64,000 nt of DNA, from the NCBI GenBank assembly GCA_043800705.1, contig JAZDMS010000035.1:2579-66578 (forward strand). Direction: 5' to 3'. The position numbers and the translations under genes were made by a program. Origin of the DNA: Candidatus Altiarchaeota archaeon. GTDB taxonomy: Archaea > Altiarchaeota > Altiarchaeia > IMC4 > SCGC-AAA252-I15. Positions 1 through 13,079 of this stretch are shown here, one piece after another; position 1 is the first letter of the stretch; each line of letters starts with the position of its first letter. Below the pieces are notes generated by a model that did not search any database, was not told the DNA's origin, and saw only the letters and a list, made by a program, of their open reading frames with translations.

Positions 1-475
1 TCCACTGAGGCGGCGTCACATAGATTACGCTGAACTTCTGAGTCTCGCCCGGATTAAGGTTAGTTATCACAGTCGTCTTTTCACCGCCGGAAACAACATT
101 GCCTTCTGAGGATTGTAGTTGGGTGACTATCGGGACTGCAGCCATCATCTTAGCGCCATTGTTGGTCACGTACCCCGCCACCATGGCATTCATGTAATAG
201 TCGTCGTCGCATCCGTCAACAGCGACAGAAACCTTGCTGAAGTCAGCCTGAACCGTATCCACGACAGTCGCCTGCGTCGTCGAAGGGGCTGTCGTATCCT
301 CGGTTAACGTCTGTATAGTCGACTTTGCGATCGTCGCAGGCGGATTCGGGTTGTAGACCGTGTATCCGGTCTGGCCGCCCAGGCAACCGGAACTAAGAGT
401 CAACAACACGACTACTAACAGGGCATAAGGAAATATCCCCCCCTCACCAAACGATATTTTTTTATCCTCTTTCAT
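1..475 (-). CDS. lipoprotein with FxLYD-like C-terminal domain (3' end runs off window)
   Basis: Hand translation from ATG 475: MKEDKKISFGEGGIFPYALLVVVLLTLSSGC (lipobox), Thr-rich linker, then GYVTNNGAKMMAAVPIVTQLQSSEGNVVSGGEKTTVITNLNPGETQKFSVIY. The frame stays open to position 1. It is absent from the ORF track because no stop lies in the window. Confidence 0.55.
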   Translation of the reverse strand, partial: MKEDKKISFGEGGIFPYALLVVVLLTLSSGCLGGQTGYTVYNPNPPATIAKSTIQTLTEDTTAPSTTQATVVDTVQADFSKVSVAVDGCDDDYYMNAMVAGYVTNNGAKMMAAVPIVTQLQSSEGNVVSGGEKTTVITNLNPGETQKFSVIYVTPPQW

Positions 476-620
476 TTTTTTCACCTATCTTTGTTTTTTT
501 CTTGACTTTTATTTATCGTTCAAATTTTGATGCTGATAAAGTGCAGGAGACGCACACCGGATTCTGGCACGGGAATCCCGCACTTCATAGATAAACGCCA
601 CAGCCCTGGGCCGCGGGTGT

Positions 621-779
621 TTATTCCCTATCCTCCCTCTCCAAAGACACCCTATCGGTTTTTTGGTCGTTTTTCATGATCTCCCTGTCGGTTCTTTGGT
701 CGTTTTCCATAGAGTCCCTATCGTTTCTCTGATCGGTCAGCAAAGCCGCTCGGTCGTTTCTCTTATCGTCGCTTTCCAT
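621..779 (-). CDS. 52-aa hydrophilic 11-residue-repeat peptide
   Basis: Hand translation: MESDDKRNDRAALLTDQRNDRDSMENDQRTDREIMKNDQKTDRVSLEREDRE. AAAAATGAGGTGGAT lies directly upstream of the ATG. The repeat type matches 5789..6061 and the N-terminus of 6162..7709. It is below the ORF-track length cut-off. Confidence 0.4.
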   Translation of the reverse strand: MESDDKRNDRAALLTDQRNDRDSMENDQRTDREIMKNDQKTDRVSLEREDRE

Positions 780-796
780 ATCCACCTCATTTTTCA

Positions 797-1048
797 TCAT
801 TTATTGGTTAAAATGTTCCTCCCCTTGATCAGCCTGATCAACATCACGATCGCCGCGATTACAAGGAGCATATGGATTATGCCCCCTGCTGCTGCAGTAA
901 CCACGCCCAGCAACCAGAGAATGAGGAGTATGATGATGATGGTCTCTAAGAGACCTCCCACTCCCGAAGATACCACTCCCAGTATCCAGAGAACCACGAC
1001 TACCATAAGTATCGTTTCAATCATATCCATTTTCAGACAACCCCACAA
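797..1048 (-). CDS. small membrane protein, tandem lmo0937-like repeats
   Basis: ILLILWLLGVVTAAAGGIIHMLLVIAAIVMLIRLIKGR matches my recollection of the lmo0937 small-membrane-protein family. A first half-copy (VVVLWILGVVSSGVGGLLE) precedes it. Confidence 0.6.
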   Translation of the reverse strand: MWGCLKMDMIETILMVVVVLWILGVVSSGVGGLLETIIIILLILWLLGVVTAAAGGIIHMLLVIAAIVMLIRLIKGRNILTNK

Positions 1049-1162
1049 TTGCCAGGAAAGCCTTTAATATCCGTGGATGTCATCACTGACTTGTTCGTTT
1101 CTACGTCCTTAATCAAGGACCAGAATTCGATCTCGTCGGTTATATCCGTCTTCTTCGCCATC

Positions 1163-1468
1163 TTATTTCCCCCTGAGCTTCGACATCACGATGACCCCGA
1201 CTATCGCCCCTATGGCTGCCGCGACTACCGTTGCTGATGCCGGGTTCTTCTTCACTTCGCTCTCGATTCGTGCCTCGGCTTTGGACATGTCCTTCTTGAC
1301 CTTTGTCCTGACGTGCTTCGATAGTTTCACCCAGTCGGCCCCTGACATGCTGGCGGCCGTCCTGTAGTTGGCTATCACCTTGTCTTCGGCCTTTTGAAGC
1401 ACGGCCTTTATCTTTTTCTTTTGTTCTTCTGTCAAACTCTCCTTCTTCGCCTTCTTTTTAAAAGCCAT
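1163..1468 (-). CDS. DUF883/YqjD-ElaB-like tail-anchored protein
   Basis: Lys/Glu-rich helical body followed by a C-terminal anchor, VKKNPASATVVAAAIGAIVGVIVMSKLRGK. A shared leader motif lies upstream. Confidence 0.5.
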   Translation of the reverse strand: MAFKKKAKKESLTEEQKKKIKAVLQKAEDKVIANYRTAASMSGADWVKLSKHVRTKVKKDMSKAEARIESEVKKNPASATVVAAAIGAIVGVIVMSKLRGK

Positions 1469-1531
1469 AATCTCACCTATTTTTCCTCATTTGGATTCTG
1501 CCGGATCGTATCGATTAAACCAGCATTATAC

Positions 1532-2059
1532 CTATTTGCATGCGCCCTCAACGCATCCGTTCGGGCATCTGTACCTGAGGGACTTGCTCATATCGCCGTC
1601 ACAGTACGACTCCACTAACCAGTCTGCTCCGTCACAATGGTCAGTCATACTTGATATATCCCAGGTTGTCGTTCCCTTTACGTAAAAATGCCCATTATCT
1701 GAGTCTTTACATCCAGGTCCAGAAACCGAGTTCACGCCGTAGTAGCTGTTTGCAGAGTCTTCCAACACACCGGATTTCTCGTACATCGCCTGAGCGGCTT
1801 TCATCTGGGCGAACCTGTTATCCAGATAAGCCTGACTGACTCCTTGATAAGGCAGACTATCGCCTCGTGCGGGTGCAGGATCTGCCGCTATCTTGATTGT
1901 GTAGCCGGTGACGGGTGGATAGCCAGTCCACAGGACAATTCCCACAATCGCCACTATTCCTCCGATCACCAGGATGGCAAGCAAGGAAAAGACGACGAAT
2001 GCTTTAGCTAAGCCGTTCTCTTTTAGATTCTGCATGATTTTTTCATAGTTTGATTCCAT
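1532..2059 (-). CDS. membrane-anchored extracellular protein with one six-Cys module
   Basis: N-terminal TM segment (FVVFSLLAILVIGGIVAIVGIVLW). The block GDSLPYQGVSQAYLDNRFAQMKAAQAMYEKSGVLEDSANSYYGVN is conserved with 4962..5771. Then comes the module GPGCKDSDNGHFYVKGT...DHCDGADWLVESYCDG...YRCPNGCVEGACK. Confidence 0.7.
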   Translation of the reverse strand: MESNYEKIMQNLKENGLAKAFVVFSLLAILVIGGIVAIVGIVLWTGYPPVTGYTIKIAADPAPARGDSLPYQGVSQAYLDNRFAQMKAAQAMYEKSGVLEDSANSYYGVNSVSGPGCKDSDNGHFYVKGTTTWDISSMTDHCDGADWLVESYCDGDMSKSLRYRCPNGCVEGACK

Positions 2060-2080
2060 TGTTTCACCTCTTCTTTTCCC

Positions 2081-2755
2081 CTATTTGTACAGCCATCCGA
2101 AGATGCCTTTGCTTTCTTTTTCCCTTTGTGCCAGGCCTTGCAGCCTGTTTTGTTCGACGTCTAGTTCTTTGAGCTGTTCGTCGATGAATTGCCCGATTTC
2201 CTCGCTGGTGCCTTTTCGGAGTTCCTTCAATTGCGCTATCCGCGCCCTATTAGCCTTGACCTCCGGCTCTATCTCATTAGCGGCAGTATCGTCCCCCCCA
2301 AACAAAAACCTCTGAAACCAGCCTCTGTTGTTCATCCTTTCTTCTGCCCCTTGGGTTTTGTTGATGGAGTTGTTGAATTGCCGTGCGACCTCAGCCACCT
2401 CCTGGCCGATGCCTCTGTCCTCGGTCATATTCCTCAAAGCCAAAAGGGACATCACGCGCTCCCGCACGACATTCTGGTTTTTGAATTCCTTAGTCTTGTC
2501 CCTGTTGTTGGTTTCGTTATCAACTTTGTCTTTTTCTTCGGAGATTTTCTGCTGGAGTCTCTCTATGACCCGTAATCTAGCCTGGATGCTGGCATCGCTC
2601 GGATTGCCATTCTGCATGCTATTGTTTATCGCATTAATGGCCTGATTTTGGCCTTGGATGCCGTCTTTATTACCCTTGTCCGAGTTTTCGTTTGCTGCGG
2701 AGACAACAGTCACCAGCAAGGAGACTAGGGCCAACAAAACCAATATTTTTTTCAT
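2081..2755 (-). CDS. secreted coiled-coil protein, function unknown
   Basis: Signal peptide MKKILVLLALVSLLVTVVSA followed by Glu/Lys/Asn/Gln-rich helical sequence. Confidence 0.6.
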   Translation of the reverse strand: MKKILVLLALVSLLVTVVSAANENSDKGNKDGIQGQNQAINAINNSMQNGNPSDASIQARLRVIERLQQKISEEKDKVDNETNNRDKTKEFKNQNVVRERVMSLLALRNMTEDRGIGQEVAEVARQFNNSINKTQGAEERMNNRGWFQRFLFGGDDTAANEIEPEVKANRARIAQLKELRKGTSEEIGQFIDEQLKELDVEQNRLQGLAQREKESKGIFGWLYK

Positions 2756-2806
2756 CTTTTTCCCTTTTTTATTTCTGTATGCTTTTTATCCGCGATAAAA
2801 TCAAAA

Positions 2807-2837
2807 GGTGAGGGCGGGTTTTCGTGCGCCCTCCACC
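2807..2837 (-). terminator. hairpin plus T-run downstream of 2843..4582
   Basis: The stem GAGGGCG/CGCCCTC (extendable to GGTG../..CACC) is followed on the minus strand by TTTTGATTTT. Confidence 0.5.
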
Positions 2838-2842
2838 TAAAC

Positions 2843-4582
2843 TTATGCCTTAAGCTTTCTTTTCGCTTCCGCACTCATCAGACGGTTGTCCTGCGCCCAT
2901 ACCCCGTATCCTGCGATTAGACACAATAGCAGCATCAGGTTTCTGAAACCTGCCGCGTATAGGGCTTGCATGGATTGCTCAGAAGGTGACATAGTGTATA
3001 CGGCGTATCCTGCCAGCAATGACGCATCACCATCCCACTCTTGCTCTGCCAGCTGTTGCGGTTCCTGTGTCCTCATTTCTTGGACCGTAGTCAATGTAGT
3101 CGATGTAGTCAATGTAGTGCTTGCTGTAGTAGGCACTGTCGCTACAATCATCGGCCTAACCCTCATTGTCGAAGTCGTTGTGGGGGGTTCGGTCGTTGTC
3201 GGAGCAGTGCATTCTTCATCCACTAAGATACACCTATCTTGTAGACCACAGTACTTATACCCTGCATCAACTGCACATCCATGATTATCCAAAGTCGTGG
3301 TTGTCGGAGCCTCGATTGTTGTTGTGGTGGTAATAATGCGTTTATGTCCTCCGTTTCCGCCGGATGCTATGGTGGTTGTCGTTGTCGTCGTATCATCCGG
3401 ATTTGTGGTCGTTGTCGTGCCAAAATACACCCATATTTCTTTGCTCTGGTTCTCGTTACTCGGATCGGCTTCGTCGGTTACGTACCCGTACAGGCTGTAA
3501 TTGCCAAACAGGTTTAAGCCAAATGTGTCCCAAACGAGGGTATTTGTGCCGTTTACTGGGGGCAATAGATCTTCCACCCCGGGCGTCCCATTGTATGTAA
3601 ACCACAGCCTAAGCAGCGGGTTTGTCCCCTCTTGTACGCCCGCCGTTATGGTTATCGGGTCATCCTGCATAGCCGCCGACACATCGGTCGTGAACTTCGT
3701 TATATAAGGTGGCAGCGTCGTAGTCGTCGTTGTAGTAGGCGTTGGGGTTATTGGCCCTGTGACAGGATTGCCCTCTAAGCTAACCGCAGTCTGTGACAGC
3801 GCTCTGCCGTTCAGTACTGCGCCAGTTTGGATCGCAATATTCGTCATATCCAGGATATTTCCATTGAACGTAGAGTACGTTCCAAGTGTCGTTGTGTCAG
3901 CGACTCTCCAGAAAACATTCGCAGGTATGGCTCCACCGTTGAGTAATACCTTAATGCCGGAATCAACGTCACCAGCTGAGGCGATATTGAGAGTTCCTGG
4001 TATCTGGAATATCCATACATCAGTTGGGCCTCCATTGAGTGTGACATCCGTTGATATTGTCACGCCAGAAGTAAACGTATAAACACCCGGAGTGAGTGTC
4101 AGCCCGCCAAGCTCACCACTTCCAGCGTTGGTATCATCCATTGGACGTGCGCCGGCATCGGTATACGCGGTTCCCATGTCTAATACTGCGTTGTCGACAT
4201 AGGTCTTGTCAGTTGAGCTACCGGCATAACAGGTTATATCGCTGCTACCCGTATATGCCGCATCAACACCGTATATTGTCCCAGATATTTCTGAACAAAA
4301 TATATTGTCCATCGCGGCAGCACTAATCGGACTAGAGCCGATGTCCCCGGTTATAGCAGAACCATGGCTATCGGTGTTCGTGATTCCAGCTTTTGTTAGA
4401 ATCGCGAAATTGCCGGCTGTTCCAAGACCCACAGGTGCCGGCGATGCGTACGCAGACACTTCACATGCCATCACTGAAAAAAACATGAGGCATACTAAAC
4501 TAATTGTTGCTATTTTCATTTGTTCCGTTATTTGTTCCATTATTGTCCACCATTTATATGTTTTTTTACACTTTTTTTCCAT
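2843..4582 (-). CDS. DUF3494 (ice-binding-like) beta-solenoid surface protein with poly-Thr stalks and a C-terminal TM anchor
   Basis: LGTAGNFAILTKAGITNT, ITGDIGSSP, LTLTPGVYTF, VTLNGGPTDVWIFQIPGTLNIA, ANVFWRV and GRALSQTAVSLEGNPVT match the DUF3494 pattern. Several TTTTT runs follow. The C-terminus carries a hydrophobic segment, LMLLLCLIAGYGVWA. Confidence 0.8.
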   Translation of the reverse strand: MEKKCKKTYKWWTIMEQITEQMKIATISLVCLMFFSVMACEVSAYASPAPVGLGTAGNFAILTKAGITNTDSHGSAITGDIGSSPISAAAMDNIFCSEISGTIYGVDAAYTGSSDITCYAGSSTDKTYVDNAVLDMGTAYTDAGARPMDDTNAGSGELGGLTLTPGVYTFTSGVTISTDVTLNGGPTDVWIFQIPGTLNIASAGDVDSGIKVLLNGGAIPANVFWRVADTTTLGTYSTFNGNILDMTNIAIQTGAVLNGRALSQTAVSLEGNPVTGPITPTPTTTTTTTLPPYITKFTTDVSAAMQDDPITITAGVQEGTNPLLRLWFTYNGTPGVEDLLPPVNGTNTLVWDTFGLNLFGNYSLYGYVTDEADPSNENQSKEIWVYFGTTTTTNPDDTTTTTTTIASGGNGGHKRIITTTTTIEAPTTTTLDNHGCAVDAGYKYCGLQDRCILVDEECTAPTTTEPPTTTSTMRVRPMIVATVPTTASTTLTTSTTLTTVQEMRTQEPQQLAEQEWDGDASLLAGYAVYTMSPSEQSMQALYAAGFRNLMLLLCLIAGYGVWAQDNRLMSAEAKRKLKA

Positions 4583-4877
4583 CTATCTTTACCCTTTTTT
4601 CCCTCATTTAGACTCTGCGTGATTGTATCGGATAACCACGTCTCTGTGGCCACCCATTATGATAATAAATTGGGGGTCAAAGCCCCCGTATAATCGGTTA
4701 AGTCCTCATGATGTTCTTGCCTGCCGGGCGGTTCTTGACCATTCCTTTCCCGCAGGGTCGTCCGCCCGTCTTCGCTACGGTTTTTGCCCGGTTCTTGGCT
4801 GCAGTCATCCTGCCGCCCCTGCTTATTTTTGCCATTTTTATTCACCCTTTAATCCTTTTTTTTTTTTAAAAAAATTT

Positions 4878-4910
4878 GAGCTACGGGCCTTTTTAGAGGC
4901 CCGTATGCTC
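4878..4910 (-). terminator. conserved hairpin ACGGGCC-loop-GGCCCGT downstream of 4962..5771
   Basis: 7-bp GC stem at 4883-4889/4898-4904, followed on the minus strand by ATTTTTTT. The loop CTAAAAA matches the hairpin at 6122-6143. Confidence 0.5.
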
Positions 4911-4961
4911 TTGGAGGTATTGATCCTCAATAGAGGATTTCCTCATGTTTCTCTAACTTCC

Positions 4962-5771
4962 CTATTTGCATGCTCCATCGGCGCATCCGTTCGGGCATTT
5001 ATACTGGATAAGTTTGCCAGTATCGCCGCCACAGTACCACTCCCTTAGCCAGACCGCTCCGTCACAGTTGTCCGCTACAGACCATCCGTTCCAGTTCGCT
5101 GTCCCTTTTATGTAGAAGTTTCCGTGATCGGAACTTATGCATCCAGGTCCTGCAGATTCATTCACGCCGTAGTAGCTGTTTGCGGAGTCTTCCAACACAC
5201 CGGATGATTCATACATCGCCTGTGTGGCCTTCATCGATGCGAACCTGCTGTCCAGATAGGTTTGGCTAACCCCCTGATAGGGTAGGCTTTGTCCTTGCGT
5301 TGAGGTCGGTCCCCCAGGGTATGTCCCAGGATCGCCTGTGCCAAGCACCTCTTTTGGGTACCCGTAACCATAGGCGTAACCGTAATGATTTGGGTAGTAA
5401 CCTGTTGCCACTGCTGCCCCGGATATCCAAGATGACGCGTAACCTGTTATCCCAGACCAGAAACTGCTCGATTGCCGGCATTCTCCGTCCATACAGCCGT
5501 TAGGGCATGTGTAACGGAACTGCTTTGCCGCTGCGCCGTCGCAATACCACTCTATCAGTCTCACGACCGGCGCACCACCGCCGTTATTCACGCAATTGTC
5601 AGTGTGGTATATGTAGTTGTTGTTTGCGTCCACTTCCAACACAGAACCCTTGGCATAGATGCTTCCGTAACCGGATGTGTAGCATCCTGGTCCTGTTTGC
5701 GCTATCGCAAAAGTCGCCAAAGACAACAGCATCAGAGTCGCCAAACCGTTCTTTATAACATTTTTTTCCAT
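4962..5771 (-). CDS. secreted protein with two six-Cys modules
   Basis: Signal peptide MEKNVIKNGLATLMLLSLATFAIAQ. Module 1 is GPGCYTSGYGSIYAKGS...DNCVNNGG...IEWYCDG...YTCPNGCMDGEC. Module 2 is GPGCISSDHGNFYIKGT...DNCDGAVWLREWYCGG...YKCPNGCADGACK. Confidence 0.75.
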   Translation of the reverse strand: MEKNVIKNGLATLMLLSLATFAIAQTGPGCYTSGYGSIYAKGSVLEVDANNNYIYHTDNCVNNGGGAPVVRLIEWYCDGAAAKQFRYTCPNGCMDGECRQSSSFWSGITGYASSWISGAAVATGYYPNHYGYAYGYGYPKEVLGTGDPGTYPGGPTSTQGQSLPYQGVSQTYLDSRFASMKATQAMYESSGVLEDSANSYYGVNESAGPGCISSDHGNFYIKGTANWNGWSVADNCDGAVWLREWYCGGDTGKLIQYKCPNGCADGACK

Positions 5772-5788
5772 CGTTTCACCTCATTTTT

Positions 5789-6061
5789 TTATAAAATAGA
5801 TTCTGCTATTTTTTGGTCGTTTTTCAAGGTCACCCTATCGTCTTTTTGATGATCTTTCAAAGTTCCCCTATCGTCTACTTGCTGGCCGTTCAAAGCCGCC
5901 CTATCATCCTTTTGATGGCTGTCCATTATCACTGTCTCGATCTTTTCATCGTTTTTCAATGTTGACAATGCGCTTTTTTGACGGCTTTTCAACGTCTCCC
6001 GAGCGTTTTTTTGACGGCTTTTCATGGCCGACATAGCCTTTGTTTCATCTTTTTTCTCCAT
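5789..6061 (-). CDS. 90-aa hydrophilic protein made of 7 x 11-residue repeats
   Basis: KSRQKNARETL / KSRQKSALSTL / KNDEKIETVIM / DSHQKDDRAAL / NGQQVDDRGTL / KDHQKDDRVTL / KNDQKIAESIL. AAAAAATGAGGTGAGGAT precedes the ATG. Confidence 0.5.
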   Translation of the reverse strand: MEKKDETKAMSAMKSRQKNARETLKSRQKSALSTLKNDEKIETVIMDSHQKDDRAALNGQQVDDRGTLKDHQKDDRVTLKNDQKIAESIL

Positions 6062-6116
6062 ATCCTCACCTCATTTTTTCCACTCCTAGATTATGTCCGT
6101 TTTTCTTCTTTTCCGC

Positions 6117-6149
6117 GAGTTATGGGCCTTTTTAGGGGCCCATAAGCTC
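6117..6149 (-). terminator. conserved hairpin ATGGGCC-loop-GGCCCAT downstream of 6162..7709
   Basis: 7-bp stem at 6122-6128/6137-6143 with the same CTAAAAA loop (minus strand) as 4883-4904. No clear T-run follows, so terminator function is uncertain. Confidence 0.4.
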
Positions 6150-6161
6150 CGGGTTTGTCTT

Positions 6162-7709
6162 TTATCCTACATTGAACTCGCCTACACCATAACCGGTCTG
6201 TATGTTTTTCTCTTGTCCTGGTTGGACTGTAGTCGGGTTGTAGTAGAGGATAACAGAGCTATCGCTTAGGATGCTTTGTTGTCCGTCTATGCTGTAGCCC
6301 CATGCGGTGTCCTTGCTTTGCTTCCAGTCTGCGACGACCAGCTTGTCGGGGGAGGTCATGCCGTCCTTGCCGCCTATGAATCCTATGGCGACGAGGGTCG
6401 GTTGTTCACCCTGGTTGTACGCCTTCCAGTACCCTGCGGAAAGCTGGCTTTGGGAGAATTCATTCTCCGTTGTTATAAGGCCTTTACCTGGTATGAAGAT
6501 CGGCGCTCCGTCGTTCAATCCAACCTTTGTGTCGATAAGCAATCTCGCGCCAATACGGTGGCCGGATACGTCATCGTTCGCCAGCTTGACCTTATTCAAT
6601 ACTGTCGTGTTCTGGATGACGCTCCACTCTTCAACCACGCGTATATTCGAAGGAAGCACCCATTCGCTTACGATTGAGGAACCGCCTATCTTCGGCTTCA
6701 CGGTATTGTATTTATCCATTTGAATGCCGTCTCTTGGGTCGCCAGATGTGGTGTAGAATCGGTCATCAACGTTTATGGTCAGGAAGGTGCCATCCCATGG
6801 GTTGGGGTAGCCATATGTCAGCTTCTCCCAGTTGTTGCCAAATAGTCCGCCAATGGAGAATACGCCTATGTTTTGGTGGTCTTCCACTTCAACGCTGATA
6901 TGGCTGTACCGTTGAAACAGGGGTGCGTTGCTGTCTGGGCCTGTGCCTGTTGTAAACGCCCACACGTAGTCGCTTCTCATCGCATTGCCTGCGAGGTCAT
7001 CGGCCCCGGAGGATATTTTGGCAGTATATCTGGTGTTAGGCTTCAGGTCGTTGTTTGGCGTAAAAATCCCAGTTCTGCCGACATTTTTCACGGTTCCTGC
7101 TATTTGAGTCCCGTCAGGTCCTGTCACTGTGAATGCTCCAGTTACCGTCTGCTCGGACATAGCCTCGCTAAAAGCTGCGAAGATGTCTTTGTTAAGCGGA
7201 ACATTCATCGCATAGTTCTCAGGTTCCGTATAGCTCACCGTCGGCGCGGTCGTATCTGATATATCCTTGACTGCGTATCCGGTTATGGGCGGCGAGATGT
7301 TCCAAAGGACTATCCCCCCCATCCCCAGTATTGCAACTAAACCCAGGAGGGCAAGCGCAAAGAGGGCGAATCCGTTTTGTTTATCCATTTTTTCGGTCAT
7401 TTCAGCCCTCTCATCTGCAATTTTTTGGTCGTTCCTCAACGTCACCCTGGCGTTTTTATGGTCGTTTCTCTGAGTGACCCTGGCGTTTTTCTGATCGTTT
7501 CTCATAGTCACTATATCGTTATTCTGGTCGTTTTTCATAGCCGCCGAGTCGTTTTTCTGATCGTTGTCCAAGGACACCCTATCGTCTTTCTGATCGTTGC
7601 CCAAAGTCGCCGATTCGTTTTTCTGATCGTTGTCCAAGGACACCCTCTCGTTCTTTTCGTCGTTTTTCAAAGACGCTCTGTCGTTTTTTTCATCGCATGT
7701 TTCCATCAT
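6162..7709 (-). CDS. membrane protein: cytoplasmic 9 x 11-residue repeat head, TM segment, SbsA/Big_5-like Ig domain, unknown C-terminal domain
   Basis: N-terminus KNDEKNERVSL/DNDQKNESATL/GNDQKDDRVSL and similar, encoded by 33-bp DNA repeats at about 7400-7700. TM segment FALFALALLGLVAILGMGGIVLW. TAPTVSYTEPENYAMNVPLNKDIFAAFSEAMS...TRYTAKISSGADDLAGN resembles the SbsA Ig-like domain. Confidence 0.75.
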   Translation of the reverse strand: MMETCDEKNDRASLKNDEKNERVSLDNDQKNESATLGNDQKDDRVSLDNDQKNDSAAMKNDQNNDIVTMRNDQKNARVTQRNDHKNARVTLRNDQKIADERAEMTEKMDKQNGFALFALALLGLVAILGMGGIVLWNISPPITGYAVKDISDTTAPTVSYTEPENYAMNVPLNKDIFAAFSEAMSEQTVTGAFTVTGPDGTQIAGTVKNVGRTGIFTPNNDLKPNTRYTAKISSGADDLAGNAMRSDYVWAFTTGTGPDSNAPLFQRYSHISVEVEDHQNIGVFSIGGLFGNNWEKLTYGYPNPWDGTFLTINVDDRFYTTSGDPRDGIQMDKYNTVKPKIGGSSIVSEWVLPSNIRVVEEWSVIQNTTVLNKVKLANDDVSGHRIGARLLIDTKVGLNDGAPIFIPGKGLITTENEFSQSQLSAGYWKAYNQGEQPTLVAIGFIGGKDGMTSPDKLVVADWKQSKDTAWGYSIDGQQSILSDSSVILYYNPTTVQPGQEKNIQTGYGVGEFNVG

Positions 7710-7818
7710 TTCACCTCACTTTTTTCCCCTCATTCGGATTCTGCCCATATGCAGCTGCTGATTCCATGCACCACAAGTACGCATCTACACCGCCTGTGTC
7801 GGATACCTGCCGGGCTGA

Positions 7819-8256: not shown

Positions 8257-9972
8257 ATGACTTCAAAAGCTGTTAAGCAAAAGTATATTGGGATTGAAAA
8301 GTGCCGCACAGGAATTCGCGGGCTGGATGAGATCACGGAAGGCGGCATACCACGGGGGCGTCCGACGCTCATTTGCGGCGGCGCCGGCTGCGGCAAGACC
8401 TTGATGGCGATGGAGTTCATCGTGCGCGGTGCGCGGGACCTCGGGGAACCCGGGGTTTTCATGGCGTTTGAGGAGACCGAAAAGGATTTGGGGAGCAACA
8501 TCTCCTCCCTCGGCTTCGACCTGCCGGCGTTGGTTGCAGCCAAGAAGGTCGCGGTCGACTACGTTTTCATCGAGCGGAAGGAGATAGAGGAGACAGGCGA
8601 ATACGATCTGGAGGGACTGTTCGTGCGCCTCAACAGCATGATCGACTCCGTCGGGGCTAAAAGGGTCGTGCTTGACGGTCTGGAGGCTCTATTCGCAGGA
8701 CTGCCCAGCGAAGGCATCCTTCGCTCAGAGCTGAGGCGGATGTTCCGCTGGCTCAAGGAGAAGGGCATCACGGCAGTCATAACCGCCGAGCAAGGTGAGA
8801 ATACCCTGACGCGCCACGGTCTCGAGGAGTACGTCAGCGATTGTGTCATATACCTTGACAATAGGTTACAAAACCAGGTTGCGACCAGGAGGGTACGCAT
8901 AATAAAGTATCGCGGCAGCAGTCACGGCACCAACGAATACCCTGCATTGATTGACGAGCAGGGCTTCAGCGTCCTGCCGATAAATACTCTCGGTCTATCC
9001 CACCGGGTGAGCTTGAAACGGATTCCATCTGGGATAGCAAGGCTTGACAATATGCTGTCCGACAAGGGATACTTCAAAGGCTCTAGCATCCTCATCTCGG
9101 GAACCGCAGGGTCGGGGAAGACGAGCGTAGCTATGGCTTACGTAGACAGCGCATGCAAGCGCGGAGAAAAGTGCCTTTACTGGTCGTCCGAGGAGTCGCC
9201 CGAACAGATCGTGAGGAACATGGCCTCAATCGGTTTAGACCTGCAAAAGCACATCGACGCTGGACATCTAATAATTCGCTCCATCCGGCCGACGTTATAT
9301 GGTTTGGAATCCCATCTGGTGAACATTCACAAGATGGTCTCTGAATATAAGCCCGACTCGGTGATTATGGATCCTGTCACCAACCTCAACGAAGTCGGAG
9401 ACGAAGCCGAAATCAAGTCGATGCTGACGAGGGTGATAGACTTCCTGAAATCCCGTGGAATCACAACCATCTTCACCAGCCTAACCGGAATGAAGGTGAA
9501 TGTGGAGCAGTCCGAGGTTGGAGTAAGTTCGCTGATGGACACGTGGATACTCCTTAGGATGGTTGAGTCGGCAAGCGAGCGAAATCGCATAATATTCGTG
9601 CTCAAGAGCCGCGGAATGGCCCACTCTAACCAGATGCGCGAGTTCATACTCAGCGACCATGGAATAGACCTTGTAGACGTATACGAAGGGTCAGGCGGCG
9701 TATTCACCGGCACTGCAAGACTCAACCTGGAGGCCAAGGAAAGGATGGAAGCGCTGGCGTCCGAGCTGAAAGCCGAAGCCCACAAGCGCGAGGTTGAGAT
9801 AGAATGCAAGGGACTGCGGGTGCAAATCGAGGCATTGCAGACGAAGCTTTCGAACGTCAACGAGGAGGGGGCAACGAACGTCAAACAGGAGAGGGACCGG
9901 ACAGACGAAGCCAAGAAAAGCCACACTGACATGGGGCGGGCGCGAGGAAGGGACAAGCAGAAAGATAACTGA
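8257..9972 (+). CDS. kaiC: circadian-clock-type ATPase KaiC with a C-terminal coiled-coil extension
   Basis: Two RecA-like halves with Walker A motifs GGAGCGKT and GTAGSGKT. Catalytic EE pairs occur in FEETEKD and [24 protein letters not shown]...[16 protein letters not shown] aligns with the S. elongatus phospho-site region ISTITDTIILL. A Glu/Lys-rich heptad-like tail of about 85 aa follows. Confidence 0.92.
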
Positions 9973-9973
9973 A

Positions 9974-10273
9974 ATGCCAAAAAGAAAAAAGAAATGGGAT
10001 CTGCGGCTTTATGTCGCAGGGCAGACGCCGCACTCGCTCAAGGCGTTCGCGAACCTCAAGAAAATATGCGACGAACACCTTCCTGGGCAATACACCCTTG
10101 TGATCATCGACCTTCTGAAGGAGCCGAAGCTCGCAGCAGGCGACCAAATAATCGCAGTTCCGACCCTCGTGAGGAAACTCCCCCAACCCATAAAGAAGAT
10201 CATAGGCGACCTCTCCGACACCGAGCGTGTCCTCGTCGGTCTCGACCTGCGGCCAATGACAAACACACTATAA
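9974..10273 (+). CDS. kaiB: KaiB
   Basis: [63 protein letters not shown] is a typical thioredoxin-like KaiB fold sequence. It starts 1 nt after the kaiC stop. Confidence 0.9.
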
Positions 10274-10284
10274 AATGAGAAAAC

Positions 10285-10625
10285 ATGAAAAGTAAAGCAA
10301 AGCATGATAAAACCACCAAACTGATAGAGAAGACGTTTACCGAAGGCGACAAATCCTATTACGTCCTCAGACTATACGTTGCCGGGCTCACTCCAAACTC
10401 CAGCCACGCAATCGATTCGATCAGAAAAATCTGCAATGAATACCTTAAAGGCAGATATGACCTGCAGATAATCGACATCTACAAGCACCCTACACTAGCC
10501 AAGGGGAGCAGATAATCGCCGCACCGACCCTGATAAAGAAACTGCCGCTACCCCTGCGCAGACTCATCGGGAACATGGCGGATGAAAAGAAAACCCTCAT
10601 AGGCCTAGACCTGCGATTCAGATGA
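10285..10625 (+). pseudogene. kaiB: second kaiB interrupted by a 1-nt frameshift in a G run
   Basis: Frame 1 reads YYVLRLYVAGLTPNSSHAIDSIRKICNEYLKGRYDLQIIDIYKHPTLAKGSR*. The shifted frame continues IIAAPTLIKKLPLPLRRLIGNMADEKKTLIGLDLRFR*. One extra G in aagGGGGag would restore LAKGEQIIAAPTL. Confidence 0.75.
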
Positions 10626-10679
10626 GAGTAGCGGATAGTTCTTATTAATCCGTATGGCTAAAACTCGTGCTATCCCTAA

Positions 10680-13079
10680 ATGAAAGACAAAACCGATAGC
10701 AAGCTGCAAAAAGAGAACGCCGATTTGCGCGCCAGACTGGGTGAAGCTGAAGAAACGCTGCGCGCCATCCGCGAAGGGGAAGTGGATGCGATTATAGTCT
10801 CAGGAAACAAGGGAAACCGGGTCTTCTCGCTGTCCGAGTCGGAGAACCTCCATCGCCTGATGGTCGAGACCATGAATGAGGTCGGCATCGCCACGACGCC
10901 GGATGGCACGATACTTTTCTGCAACAATCGGGCCACTGAACTCCTCGCACAGCCGCAGAACAAGCTCTTAGGCCGCAATCTGGCCGAATTTATCGCTTCC
11001 CAGGACATTCATCACTTCAAGGACATACTCAAAATCGCATTGAAGGAGACTACGCACAAAAGGATTCTATTCCAGTCCAGGAATGGCAACTCCATCCCCC
11101 TGGAAATATGGGCAAGCCACCTCAAAAGCCAAGGAAATCCCATAATAAGCCTCGTCGCGACAGACCTGTCCCAATTAGAGGCGGTGCAAAACCTAGTAAA
11201 ACAACTGAGGGAGAGCGAGGAGAAGTTTCGCGGAATCGTAGAGACTGCTAGGGAGGGCATAATAACCGCTACTCTAGGCGGTAATTTCACCTTCGTTAAT
11301 CAGATGATGGCAGACATGCTCGGCTATCCAGTCGATGAAATCCTGAACAAAACAAGTTTGGATTTCAGCTTCAAAGACTTGAAAAAGCCAGTTCTGGACT
11401 TAAGAAACGAGCTAAAAACCAAAAAGATATTGAGTGGCGAGTTCAAGTTCCGCCGCAAAGACGGCTCAGTGCTGTGGTCAAGCTATAACGCTTCGCCGAT
11501 TTTCGACAGCAGTGGACGACACGTAGCCAATCTTGCCATGCATACGGACATCACCGAACGCAAGAAGGTCGAAGCCAAGATAAAACAGGCCGAGGAGGAC
11601 CTTCGGCAGACCCGCGATTACCTGGAGAACCTCCTGAACTACGCGAACGCACCGATCATCGTATGGGATAAAATGCAGAGGATATTCAGGTTCAACAAGG
11701 CTTTCGAACACCTTACAGGATACACAGCCCATGACGTGATAGGGAAAAGGCTGGATATTCTCTTCCCGAAAGACAACCGAAAGGAGTCATTGGATAAGAT
11801 CAAGCAGACAGCTGTGGGGGATTACTGGGAATCCGTCGAGATTCCGATACTCCAAAAGGACGGAGAAGTAAGGATAGTGCTATGGAACTCGGCGAACATC
11901 TACGACAAGGACGGCAAGACTATACTATCGACGATAGCGCAGGGACAGGATATCACCGCACGGAAGAATGCGGAGTTGGAGCGCGAACACTTCATCAGCA
12001 AGGTCCAGCAGCTGTCGGCGGAGGCCCAGATGAAGGCGAACGAACTCGAAGCGATTTTCAAGTCAATGGCTGAGCCGCTGATCATCTATGACGTGTCCGG
12101 AAAGGCGGTAAAACACAACCAAGCAATGTCAAAGATGCTGGGCTTCGACCCAGCAGGGCTGACAATCCGGGGGATTATGGGAAAAATTTCCCTCATGACT
12201 GAGGAGGGCGCTCCCTTCAATGTCGAGGAAACCCCCGAAGGCCGCGCGTTAAAAGGCGAGACCGTGCATGACGTGAAGCTGATATTCAAATACGAGACTG
12301 GGAGGGAGAAGATTGTGCTATCGAACTCAGCCCCCATAATCACCAAGGGGAAGGTGACTGGCGTGATAGTCGTATGGCATGACATAACCGAGACGGAAAA
12401 GGTCAAGAAGCTGAGGGACAGGATGCTGAGGGACCTGTCGCACCAGCTGAAAACCCCGCTGTCGATAATCGAGATGGGACTTGAACGTCTTTCAAAAGAA
12501 TCCAGCGACAGCGGCGGACACCACCATCAGAACATGGACATGATCCTTAGGAACACACGACAAACGAGGGAGCTCGTAACGAAGATACTGAAGCTCAGCA
12601 GGCTCGAGTCCGGAAGTGAGAAGGTGAAGAGAGCGAGATTCGACCTGGCTAAGGAGATGTTAGGGGCGTTGGCTGATTTGATGCATCTGGCAGAGGAGAA
12701 ACGGCTGGTACTGACGTATCATGGGCCCGCCAACCTAGAAGTGAATTCAGATAGAGATAAGGTGATGGGGTCAATCACCAACCTAGCGGAAAACGCCATA
12801 AAATACACCGAGACCGGGGATATAGACGTAAAGCTTGACGAATTCGCGGATAACGTCGTTGTCGAAGTCTTAGACACAGGCGTCGGCCTCAGCGAAGAGG
12901 ACATCGAAAATGTGTTCAACGCTTTCTACAAGGTCGATCCTAGCGTGCCAGGTGCGGGAGTAGGACTGAACATAGTGGCTGAGAACATGAAGCTCCTGGG
13001 CGGAAGCATCAAGGCAGAGTCCCAAGGCCATGGCAAAGGCAGTGTTTTTAAGTTGACAATACCAAAGGGAACCAAATGA
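10680..13079 (+). CDS. multi-PAS sensor histidine kinase
   Basis: N-terminal coiled coil (LRARLGEAEETLRAIREGEVDAIIV) and several PAS/PAC blocks (e.g. DITERKKVE, DITARKNAE). H-box LSHQLKTPLS. HATPase_c motifs NLAENAIKYT, DTGVGL and GAGVGLNIV. Confidence 0.9.
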   Translation: MKDKTDSKLQKENADLRARLGEAEETLRAIREGEVDAIIVSGNKGNRVFSLSESENLHRLMVETMNEVGIATTPDGTILFCNNRATELLAQPQNKLLGRNLAEFIASQDIHHFKDILKIALKETTHKRILFQSRNGNSIPLEIWASHLKSQGNPIISLVATDLSQLEAVQNLVKQLRESEEKFRGIVETAREGIITATLGGNFTFVNQMMADMLGYPVDEILNKTSLDFSFKDLKKPVLDLRNELKTKKILSGEFKFRRKDGSVLWSSYNASPIFDSSGRHVANLAMHTDITERKKVEAKIKQAEEDLRQTRDYLENLLNYANAPIIVWDKMQRIFRFNKAFEHLTGYTAHDVIGKRLDILFPKDNRKESLDKIKQTAVGDYWESVEIPILQKDGEVRIVLWNSANIYDKDGKTILSTIAQGQDITARKNAELEREHFISKVQQLSAEAQMKANELEAIFKSMAEPLIIYDVSGKAVKHNQAMSKMLGFDPAGLTIRGIMGKISLMTEEGAPFNVEETPEGRALKGETVHDVKLIFKYETGREKIVLSNSAPIITKGKVTGVIVVWHDITETEKVKKLRDRMLRDLSHQLKTPLSIIEMGLERLSKESSDSGGHHHQNMDMILRNTRQTRELVTKILKLSRLESGSEKVKRARFDLAKEMLGALADLMHLAEEKRLVLTYHGPANLEVNSDRDKVMGSITNLAENAIKYTETGDIDVKLDEFADNVVVEVLDTGVGLSEEDIENVFNAFYKVDPSVPGAGVGLNIVAENMKLLGGSIKAESQGHGKGSVFKLTIPKGTK

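What the first reader, a model, noticed from the sequence alone, without database searches (positions are those of the whole stretch)
621..7709. Hydrophilic 11-residue (33-bp) tandem repeat found both as free mini-ORFs and as the cytoplasmic head of a membrane protein
Three loci carry the same repeat type, with consensus about (K/R)ND(Q/E)K(N/D)xR(V/A)(S/T)L. It occurs 9 times at the N-terminus of 6162..7709, before its TM segment. It occurs 7 times as a stand-alone 90-aa ORF (5789..6061) ending 17 nt before the secreted six-Cys protein gene. It occurs about 4 times as a 52-aa ORF (621..779) upstream of a lipoprotein gene. An 11-residue period is characteristic of LEA-group-3, apolipoprotein and synuclein-type amphipathic helices that bind membrane surfaces. 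Occurrence both fused and unfused, always just 5' of an exported-protein gene, suggests a modular accessory element (a chaperone, targeting or membrane-surface factor, or a leader peptide). I do not recognise it as a described family.
Basis: partly seen in the sequence, partly recalled or inferred. Interest (0 to 1): 0.7.

Follow-up and report, generated by a model that had tools for sequence, protein, structure and literature searches.

The report
Unannotated 11-residue repeat proteins in Altiarchaeia
An uncultivated archaeon (Altiarchaeota) encodes a very water-loving 11-amino-acid repeat, both as the inner head of a cell-surface protein and as small separate proteins that annotation missed; it is real and under selection, but it is not the membrane-binding helix first proposed, and its function is unknown.

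Summary
Three minus-strand arrays of 33-bp/11-aa units sit in perfect register: about 9 units at the N-terminus of ORF C (6162..7709), 7 in ORF B (5789..6061) and 4 in ORF A (621..779). The window is a Candidatus Altiarchaeota MAG.

The repeats are protein-coding and selected. B is kept ungapped in a related contig with dN/dS 0.22; the other five frames have stops and ratios of 0.49-1.95. The head of C is kept in a distant Altiarchaeia genome (pN 0.24, pS 0.74), which also has a free mini-ORF 15 nt upstream of C. So fused and free forms are both conserved, and a free copy lies next to C in all three genomes. Frameshift fusion and gene-remnant readings are rejected.

The free ORFs are absent from a 15-billion-protein collection. 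No Pfam, NCBIfam or PDB family matches.

The LEA/apolipoprotein/synuclein reading fails. The hydrophobic moment at the 3-11 helix angle is about zero. Instead the charges form stripes (+ at positions 4, 8, 11; - at 6, 10; Asn at 5, 9).

My best guess, at low confidence, is a cytoplasmic, helix-prone, electrostatic interaction module. Function remains untested.

The parts
7413..7706 (-). Repeat head of ORF C. It is a partial first unit (METCDEKNDR) plus 8 units of 11 aa, ending in ...LRNDQKIAD.
   Evidence: It is coding and constrained against the L055 ortholog (pN 0.24, pS 0.74, no stops).
7712..7717 (-). Shine-Dalgarno GAGGTG of ORF C, within the extended motif AAAAAGTGAGGTGA.
7302..7370 (-). 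Single transmembrane segment of ORF C (FALFALALLGLVAILGMGGIVLW, residues 114-136), followed by the SPPITGYAVKD motif.
   Evidence: The same arrangement is present in L055.
7398..7412 (-). Linker GAGAGGGCTGAAATG. It looks like an SD plus ATG (Met104) and resembles the B-to-six-Cys junction. It is not conserved in L055.
6162..7301 (-). Extracellular body of ORF C. It comprises a Big_5 Ig-like domain (6948..7256) and a C-terminal domain of about 260 aa with no family match.
   Evidence: Pfam PF13205, E = 8e-26. Homologs P0004-P0006 of the C-terminal domain carry ordinary signal peptides and no repeats.
6120..6145 (-). Conserved hairpin TTATGGGCCCCTAAAAAGGCCCATAA between the C stop and the B start.
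   Evidence: There is a compensatory change in L001 and a similar stem in L055.
5789..6061 (-). Free mini-ORF B, 90 aa, 7 units, with GAGGTG at 6067..6072.
   Evidence: dN/dS is 0.22 against L001 with no indels; all other frames have stops. AlphaFold2 predicts a helix over residues 2-89, pLDDT 90.
4962..5771 (-). Secreted six-Cys protein gene. Its own SD lies 17 nt after the B stop.
621..779 (-). Free mini-ORF A, 52 aa, 4 units, with GAGGTG at 783..788. It abuts the stop of the DUF5670 gene.
   Evidence: The start of a homolog is present at the end of L001.
797..1030 (-). DUF5670 small membrane protein gene, immediately upstream of A.
   Evidence: Pfam PF18919, E = 1.7e-16. It is conserved in L001 and L055.
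2..475 (-). Putative lipoprotein gene, 145 nt downstream of A and cut by the window end.
   Evidence: No family match.

Best explanation
SHOWN. The 33-bp repeats encode a real, selectively constrained polypeptide module that has so far been found only in Altiarchaeia. The module starts directly at the initiator Met (ME...) and consists only of 11-residue units with consensus (V/A)(S/T)(L/M)xND(Q/E)K(N/D)DR. It is 36-56% charged, has no aromatic residues or Pro, almost no Gly, and a GRAVY of -1.2 to -2.1.

The module occurs in two forms:
- As the roughly 100-aa N-terminal head of a conserved single-pass surface protein, with the order head, TM, Big_5, C-terminal domain.
- As separately initiated small proteins of 52-92 aa. 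One of these lies directly next to that surface-protein gene in each of the three genomes seen.

INFERRED. The head and the free proteins are cytoplasmic. They have no signal peptide, and homologs of the C-terminal domain are exported.

INFERRED MECHANISM (about 0.3-0.35 likely). The module is a helix-prone polyampholyte. On a 3-11 helix its residues sort into straight stripes: positive at positions 4, 8 and 11, negative at 6 and 10, and an uncharged Val/Ser-Thr/Asn/Asn seam at 1, 2, 5 and 9. Same-sign charges stack at i+3/i+4, so an isolated helix is not self-stabilised. It would fold and bind only when its stripes are neutralised by a partner. The simplest partner is another copy. The free copies next to C are net positive (+1 to +3) and would zip onto the net-negative membrane-anchored head (-1 to -5). 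This would form a membrane-proximal complex under the surface protein. It does not work as a lipid-embedding amphipathic helix.
For: Identity and coding:
- B against its L001 homolog shows 89 ungapped codons, differences by codon position of 7/10/20, and dN/dS 0.22. Flanking genes give 0.06-0.24. The five other frames have 2-13 stops and ratios of 0.49-1.95.
- The C head against the L055 ortholog gives pN 0.24 and pS 0.74 with no stops, while four of the five other frames are near 1. The exception, -1, gives 0.36 but has 8 stops.
- Strong SD motifs lie 3-5 nt before each ATG.

Conservation of both forms:
- L001 keeps the order C, B, six-Cys ... DUF5670, A.
- L055/L176 has free ORF U 15 nt upstream of a C ortholog that carries 10 units and no internal Met before its TM.
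- The C body is 67% identical between the window and L055.

Stripes:
- The charge moment is largest at the 98.2-degree harmonic in five of six arrays (0.21-0.28). It falls in the top 0.4-15% of column permutations.
- Opposite-sign i+3/i+4 pairs are depleted (6-13 observed against 12-20 expected), and same-sign pairs are enriched.

Other points:
- Helix-proneness: AlphaFold2 models B as one helix, pLDDT 90.
- Charge complementarity of adjacent partners is shown.
- The repeat mRNA has no RNA structure signal (z = +0.56).
Against: - No experiment or co-folding supports an interaction.
- AlphaFold2 modelled the same repeats in full-length C as low-confidence coil, pLDDT about 30. The helical state is therefore uncertain, and Asn/Asp-rich sequence has modest helix propensity.
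- The charge-complementarity argument rests on three small net charges. A is net -5 and is not next to C.
- Only three genomes are known, so adjacency could reflect duplication history rather than function.
- Free copies resemble C heads more than they resemble each other. This also fits repeated partial duplication of the 5' end of C.
Confidence: 0.35

Rival explanations
1. The repeats are hydrophilin/LEA-like protectants. On this reading they are disordered cytoplasmic polyampholytes that shield proteins or membranes during water, cold or osmotic stress, and they are encoded in a small stress-type gene island.
For: - The sequences are extremely hydrophilic with an 11-mer period.
- The conserved neighbours include DUF5670, a tail-anchored protein with a weak DUF883_C-like match (E = 0.17), a very basic 45-aa protein and a DUF3494 ice-binding-like protein, in both the window and L055.
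- LEA 11-mers alone can protect cells (PMC8670023).
Against: - There is no LEA_4 or other Pfam match.
- There is no apolar stripe.
- Gly content is 0-2 residues, below the hydrophilin criterion of more than 6% (criterion from my own knowledge).
- A protectant role does not explain why one copy is welded to a surface protein in two distant genomes.
- The stress character of the neighbours is weakly founded.
Confidence: 0.2
2. The free ORFs are cis-acting 5' cassettes. On this reading they are partial duplicates of the 5' end of gene C (promoter, SD and well-translated A-rich leader) that drive downstream genes by translational coupling. In C itself, the charged head mainly fixes the N-in topology of the signal anchor. 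The peptides would have no function in trans.
For: - The B stop lies 17 nt before the six-Cys ATG, with the SD in between. The U stop lies 15 nt before the C ATG.
- Five genes share the motif AAAAA(T/G)GAGGTG-N3-5-ATGGAR.
- Free copies are closer to C heads than to each other.
- The linker in the window's C looks like a former SD plus ATG junction.
Against: - Purifying selection acts on the B peptide sequence itself: dN/dS is 0.22, and the unit-by-unit order and length are conserved.
- A lies 145 nt from the next gene, at the end of an operon.
- The repeat mRNA is not unusually unstructured compared with shuffles (z = +0.56).
Confidence: 0.15
3. The repeats form 3-11 amphipathic helices that lie on the membrane surface, like apolipoproteins, synuclein or LEA-3, and they assist export or membrane targeting of the neighbouring proteins.
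For: - The 11-residue period has no indels.
- The repeats sit next to a TM segment in C and next to exported-protein genes.
- B is predicted to be helical.
Against: - The hydrophobic moment at 98.2 degrees is 0.02-0.07, lower than in most random column orders.
- Only two apolar positions occur per unit (1 and 3), and they fall on opposite sides of the helix.
- No family profile matches.
- The association with exported-protein genes is uninformative in a region where most genes are exported.
Confidence: 0.05
4. The free ORFs are non-functional by-products, that is, decaying fragments of duplicated or frameshifted genes.
For: - They are absent from the 15-billion-protein collection.
- They sit at different positions in different genomes.
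Against: - B is intact, has the same length and is under constraint at dS 0.45.
- All free ORFs keep a strong SD and an ATG.
- The six-Cys gene has its own conserved start and signal peptide in both genomes.
Confidence: 0.08

Closest known systems
Group 3 LEA proteins (Pfam LEA_4; 11-mer motif of Dure 1993, as described in PMC8670023)
   Same: Both have tandem 11-residue units, are very hydrophilic, are predicted to be helix-prone rather than globular, sort charges by position, and are cytoplasmic.
   Different: There is no profile match. The positions that form the apolar stripe in LEA (1, 2, 5, 9) are Val/Ala, Ser/Thr, Asn and Asn here. The hydrophobic moment at the 3-11 angle is about zero. 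Here the module is also fused to a membrane protein.
Exchangeable apolipoprotein / alpha-synuclein / perilipin 11-mer amphipathic helices (3-11 helix; PMC5889406)
   Same: Both show an 11-mer period kept without insertions over about 100 residues. Both show higher-order super-repeats: 22 aa here and 33 aa in Plin4.
   Different: Those families require a non-polar face to sit on lipid, and this repeat has none. The sequences are unrelated. No lipid-droplet or lipoprotein context is known in these archaea.
Single alpha-helix (ER/K, SAH) domains
   Same: Both are long, highly charged stretches predicted as one uninterrupted helix (B).
   Different: SAH domains are stabilised by dense opposite-charge pairs at i to i+4. 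Here those pairs are depleted and same-sign pairs are enriched. The composition is also rich in Asn and Asp rather than Glu.
Type I fish antifreeze proteins (TX10 11-residue repeat helix; PMC5304152)
   Same: Both have an 11-residue period that lines up the same side chains in a straight row along a helix. Here that row is an uncharged seam of small or amide residues, and a DUF3494 ice-binding-like gene lies nearby.
   Different: Type I AFPs are 60-75% Ala and secreted. These repeats are under 10% Ala, 36-56% charged and cytoplasmic. No ice-related evidence exists.

Membership tests
Group 3 LEA (LEA_4) | Tandem 11-residue repeat units | tested here: met
Group 3 LEA (LEA_4) | Match to the curated family profile (Pfam LEA_4) | tested here: not met
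   A, B and the C head match no Pfam family at E <= 0.1, and no NCBIfam family either.
Group 3 LEA (LEA_4) | Apolar stripe giving an amphipathic helix | tested here: not met
   The binary hydrophobic moment at 98.2 degrees is 0.02-0.07, against 0.20 for the idealised LEA 11-mer. 61-97% of column permutations are more amphipathic.
Group 3 LEA (LEA_4) | Disordered in water, helical on drying; protects against desiccation | not testable with these tools
   This needs CD or FTIR and survival assays.
Apolipoprotein / synuclein / perilipin 11-mer amphipathic helix | 11-mer period without indels | tested here: met
Apolipoprotein / synuclein / perilipin 11-mer amphipathic helix | Non-polar face on a 3-11 helix | tested here: not met
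   See; alpha-synuclein residues 1-95 gave 0.14 in the same test. The dominant hydrophobic harmonics are 164 and 65 degrees, not about 98.
Apolipoprotein / synuclein / perilipin 11-mer amphipathic helix | Lipid-induced folding and binding | not testable with these tools
   This needs liposome and CD experiments.
Single alpha-helix (ER/K) domain | Dense opposite-charge pairs at i to i+3/i+4 | tested here: not met
   6-13 pairs were observed against 12-20 in shuffles. An idealised (E4K4)n control gave 133 against 77.
Single alpha-helix (ER/K) domain | Stable isolated long helix | tested here: inconclusive
   B is modelled as a helix over residues 2-89 with pLDDT 90. The C head is modelled as coil with pLDDT about 30.
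Type I antifreeze protein | Ala-rich (over 60%) TX10 helix with a Thr/Ala ice-binding face | tested here: not met
   The composition is under 10% Ala and 36-56% charged. Only the 11-residue period is shared.
Hydrophilins | High hydrophilicity and Gly above 6% | tested here: not met
   GRAVY is -1.2 to -2.1, which meets the first criterion, but Gly is 0-2 residues per protein. The criterion is from my own knowledge.
Translationally coupled upstream/leader ORF | Stop within about 20 nt of the downstream start, with an SD at the junction | tested here: inconclusive
   This is met for B to six-Cys (17 nt) and U to C (15 nt). It is not met for A (145 nt). The peptide itself is under selection.
Big_5 (SbsA-type Ig-like) surface proteins (ORF C body only) | Pfam PF13205 above the gathering score | tested here: met
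   91.2 bits against a cutoff of 23.6. The L055 ortholog scores 89.8 bits.

The most novel reading that the evidence does not exclude
The repeat is a new structural class of 3-11 helix that carries no hydrophobic face. Instead it has straight positive, negative and Asn/Val/Ser-Thr stripes. Small soluble copies would zip electrostatically onto the cytoplasmic head of a surface protein. Alternatively, the uncharged 11-residue-periodic seam would order water or ice in the manner of type I antifreeze helices, working together with the conserved neighbouring DUF3494 ice-binding-like protein.
Probability: 0.12. Interest if true: 0.65.

Novelty: new variant of a known kind. Interest (0 to 1): 0.4.

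Why it matters
- It adds a conserved, selected but unannotated small-protein family to Altiarchaeota, a poorly understood phylum. None of the free ORFs is in a 15-billion-protein collection.
- It is a clear example of one repeat module used both in cis, as a membrane-protein head, and in trans, as small proteins next to it.
- It shows that an 11-residue period alone does not imply a lipid-binding amphipathic helix. Here the periodicity organises charge and amide stripes instead.
- If the stripes mediate assembly, this would be a simple, designable electrostatic helix-pairing code.
- If function stays unknown, it remains a lineage-specific repeat of modest general interest.

Tried and rejected
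1. Word-indexed protein searches with the C head and with an alignment of A, B, B-L001 and the C head returned nothing. They did not even return P0001, which is in that database. These are therefore tool blind spots, not evidence of absence.

2. The exhaustive profile search of 1.84 billion representatives gave 13 hits, all other kinds of 11-mer repeat proteins. A local test showed that C and B-L001 would have scored 140 and 109 bits. The library therefore lacks them, and the negative result is weak.

3. DNA pattern scans:
Of 119 loci only L055 is related.
   - The JGI metagenome scan with a 3-unit pattern gave 27 loci, none related.
   - The viral contig scan found none related.

4. A PDB profile search found nothing, with a best E-value of 3.1.

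5. RNA-structure reading: the repeat mRNA of C folds no better than shuffles (z = +0.56). The z of -3.1 around B comes from the hairpin after C.

6. Antisense coding: the antisense frame is open, but its dN/dS is about 1.

7. Programmed frameshift or read-through from B into six-Cys was rejected, because the frame offset is not conserved and a TGA lies in frame.

8. A true start of C at Met104 was rejected. L055 has no such Met, and the head is constrained.

9. A class III (prepilin-like) cleavage at NG|F before the TM was considered. The motif K-x-N-G precedes the hydrophobic segment in three window proteins, but it is absent from the L055 ortholog, so I dropped it.

10. Full-length AlphaFold2 of C was too poor (mean pLDDT 49.6) for a fold search of the C-terminal domain.

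11. Paralogs of the C-terminal domain (P0004, P0005) lie in unrelated contexts. No repeat ORF was found near P0005 (L174); no DNA could be fetched for P0004.

Full report
**What is there**

The window (GC 54.7%) belongs to a MAG labelled Candidatus Altiarchaeota archaeon. ORF C is identical to NCBI protein P0001, annotated 'Ig-like domain-containing protein'. Neighbouring ORFs carry V1875_ locus tags.

On the minus strand, three arrays of 33-bp units lie in perfect register:

| Array | Coordinates | Content |
|---|---|---|
| C | 6162..7709 | A partial unit at the initiator Met, 8 full units, then a linker, one TM segment (residues 114-136), a Big_5 domain (E = 8e-26) and an unassigned C-terminal domain of about 260 aa |
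| B | 5789..6061 | 90 aa, 7 units |
| A | 621..779 | 52 aa, 4 units |

Lag-11 identity is 0.35-0.54, against 0.07-0.10 in shuffles, and none of 2000 shuffles reaches it. A unit HMM finds nothing else in the 64 kb. The three proteins align collinearly from Met1 (ME...), and B and C end alike with (K/R)NDQKIA(E/D).

**Coding or not**

Each array is preceded by GAGGTG 3-5 nt before its ATG, within a shared motif AAAAA(T/G)GAGGTG.

A related 2961-bp contig, L001 (GCA_040961665.1), keeps the gene order C, B, six-Cys, 45 aa, 102 aa, 42 aa, DUF5670 and the start of A.

- B is 89 aa there, against 90 aa in the window, with no indel.
- Its differences fall 7/10/20 by codon position, and dN/dS is 0.22. 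Flanking genes give 0.06-0.24.
- The other five frames contain 2-13 stops and give ratios of 0.49-1.95.

A distant genome, L055/L176 (Candidatus Altiarchaeia archaeon MFD12011, GC 45%), has an ortholog of C.

- Its body is 67% identical to the window's C, and its head has 10 units.
- Over 98 ungapped head codons, pN is 0.24 and pS is 0.74 with no stops. Four of the other frames are near 1; frame -1 gives 0.36 but has 8 stops.
- The L055 head runs straight into the TM segment with no internal Met. The head is therefore part of the protein, even though the window's linker (7398..7412) looks like an old SD plus ATG junction.

The repeats are therefore translated sequence under purifying selection in both the fused and the free form.

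**Free against fused**

L055 has a free 92-aa ORF, U, of about 7 units. It has its own SD and ends 15 nt before the ATG of C. No other array lies within 21.5 kb.

A free copy therefore lies directly beside gene C in all three genomes: downstream in the window and L001, upstream in L055. The six-Cys gene is absent from the L055 locus.

- Free copies resemble C heads more than they resemble each other.
- The copies next to C are net positive (+3, +1, +3), while the heads are net negative (-5, -1).
- A lies elsewhere, abutting the DUF5670 stop and 145 nt from the lipoprotein gene.
- About 8 of 10 genes in this stretch encode membrane or exported proteins. Being '5' of an exported-protein gene' therefore carries no information.
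- Frameshift fusion of B with six-Cys is excluded. The offset to the ATG is 2 (mod 3) in the window and 1 in L001, and a TGA within the SD closes the downstream frame.

**Distribution**

- None of A, B, B-L001 or U is in the 15-billion-protein collection, whereas C, its L055 ortholog and the neighbouring genes are. The small ORFs are systematically unannotated.
- Pfam, NCBIfam and PDB give no match.
- The protein database searches are weak negatives because the tools cannot see even the known members.
They found none in JGI metagenomes or in viral contigs.

On present evidence the family is restricted to Altiarchaeia.

**Physical character**

- The arrays are 36-56% charged, with up to 29% Asn plus Gln. 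They have no Pro or aromatic residues and 0-2 Gly.
- AlphaFold2 models B as one helix over residues 2-89 with pLDDT 90. It leaves the same repeats in full-length C as coil with pLDDT about 30. Helicity is therefore plausible but conditional.
- On a 3-11 helix, which is the geometry of 11-mer repeat helices (PMC5889406), the two apolar positions (1 and 3) fall on opposite sides.
- The hydrophobic moment at 98.2 degrees is 0.02-0.07. The same test gives 0.14 for alpha-synuclein and 0.20 for an idealised LEA 11-mer. Between 61% and 97% of random column orders are more amphipathic.
- In contrast, the charge moment peaks at exactly this harmonic in five of six arrays (0.21-0.28, top 0.4-15% of permutations).
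- The resulting stripes are Lys/Arg at positions 4, 8 and 11, Asp/Glu at 6 and 10, and an uncharged seam of Val/Ala, Ser/Thr, Asn and Asn at 1, 2, 5 and 9.
- Opposite-sign i+3/i+4 pairs are depleted and same-sign pairs are enriched, which is the reverse of SAH domains.
- The repeat mRNA has no excess structure.

**Interpretation**

The identity is well supported, at about 0.9: this is a lineage-specific, cytoplasmic, repeat-only protein module used in cis and in trans.

The mechanism is inference. I favour an electrostatic, fold-on-binding helix-pairing module in which free copies dock on the membrane-anchored head, at about 0.35. The rivals are:

| Reading | Probability |
|---|---|
| LEA-like protectant | 0.2 |
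| Cis-acting 5' cassette or topology determinant | 0.15 |
| Non-functional duplicates | 0.08 |

The 11-residue uncharged seam next to a conserved DUF3494 gene allows an ice- or water-ordering reading analogous to type I AFPs (PMC5304152). Composition and location argue against it.

**Verdict**

- This is a new variant of the 11-mer repeat protein theme, with no family membership.
- Interest is moderate.

Noticed in passing
window 8257..13079 (+): KaiC (PF06745, E = 4e-107), KaiB (PF07689, E = 2e-26) and a multi-PAS histidine kinase lie in a row. This is a KaiBC clock-like module in an Altiarchaeota MAG, and it is divergent from the repeat locus.
   Followed up: partly
window 6120..6145 (-); L001 ~515..545; L055 ~2390..2415: A conserved GC-rich hairpin follows the stop of ORF C. 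L001 shows a compensatory T-to-C / A-to-G change and L055 has a G-U variant. It may be a terminator or processing site separating C from B.
   Followed up: partly
window 783..788, 2065..2070, 5777..5782, 6067..6072, 7712..7717 (-): Five genes of this cluster (A, the 175-aa ORF, six-Cys, B and C) share an extended initiation region, AAAAA(T/G)GAGGTG(A/G)-N3-5-ATGGA(A/G). All five begin Met-Glu.
   Followed up: partly
window 7270..7300 (-), 1532..2059 (-), 4962..5771 (-): A motif P-P-(I/V)-T-G-Y follows the N-terminal TM in C and in the 175-aa ORF, and SGITGYA occurs inside the six-Cys protein. K-x-N-G precedes the hydrophobic segment in all three proteins. The meaning is unknown.
   Followed up: no
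window 1532..4582 (-): This block holds the 175-aa Cys-module protein, a 224-aa secreted protein and a 579-aa DUF3494 ice-binding-like protein. It is absent from the syntenic contig L001. The six-Cys protein is a tandem of the Cys module that ends Y.CPNGC.DG.C.
   Followed up: partly
window 4698..4835 (-): A 45-aa extremely basic ORF (MAKISRGGRMTAAKNRAK...) is conserved in L001 (91% aa identity, dN/dS 0.06) and in L055. It has no family match.
   Followed up: partly
L176 15768..16781: In the L055 genome the repeat/surface-protein island is flanked by an IS110-family transposase. It sits between two sets of Mrp/complex-I-like (Proton_antipo_M, NADHdh) genes, which suggests a variable island.
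   Followed up: no
proteins P0015, P0016, P0021, P0013: These are unrelated proteins with superficially similar 11-residue repeats: ATIKGDQNNDS, TLKxHQKxEKx after a signal peptide, and VTLGDDQTDPx. None has a Pfam family. 11-mer polar repeats appear to recur independently.
   Followed up: partly
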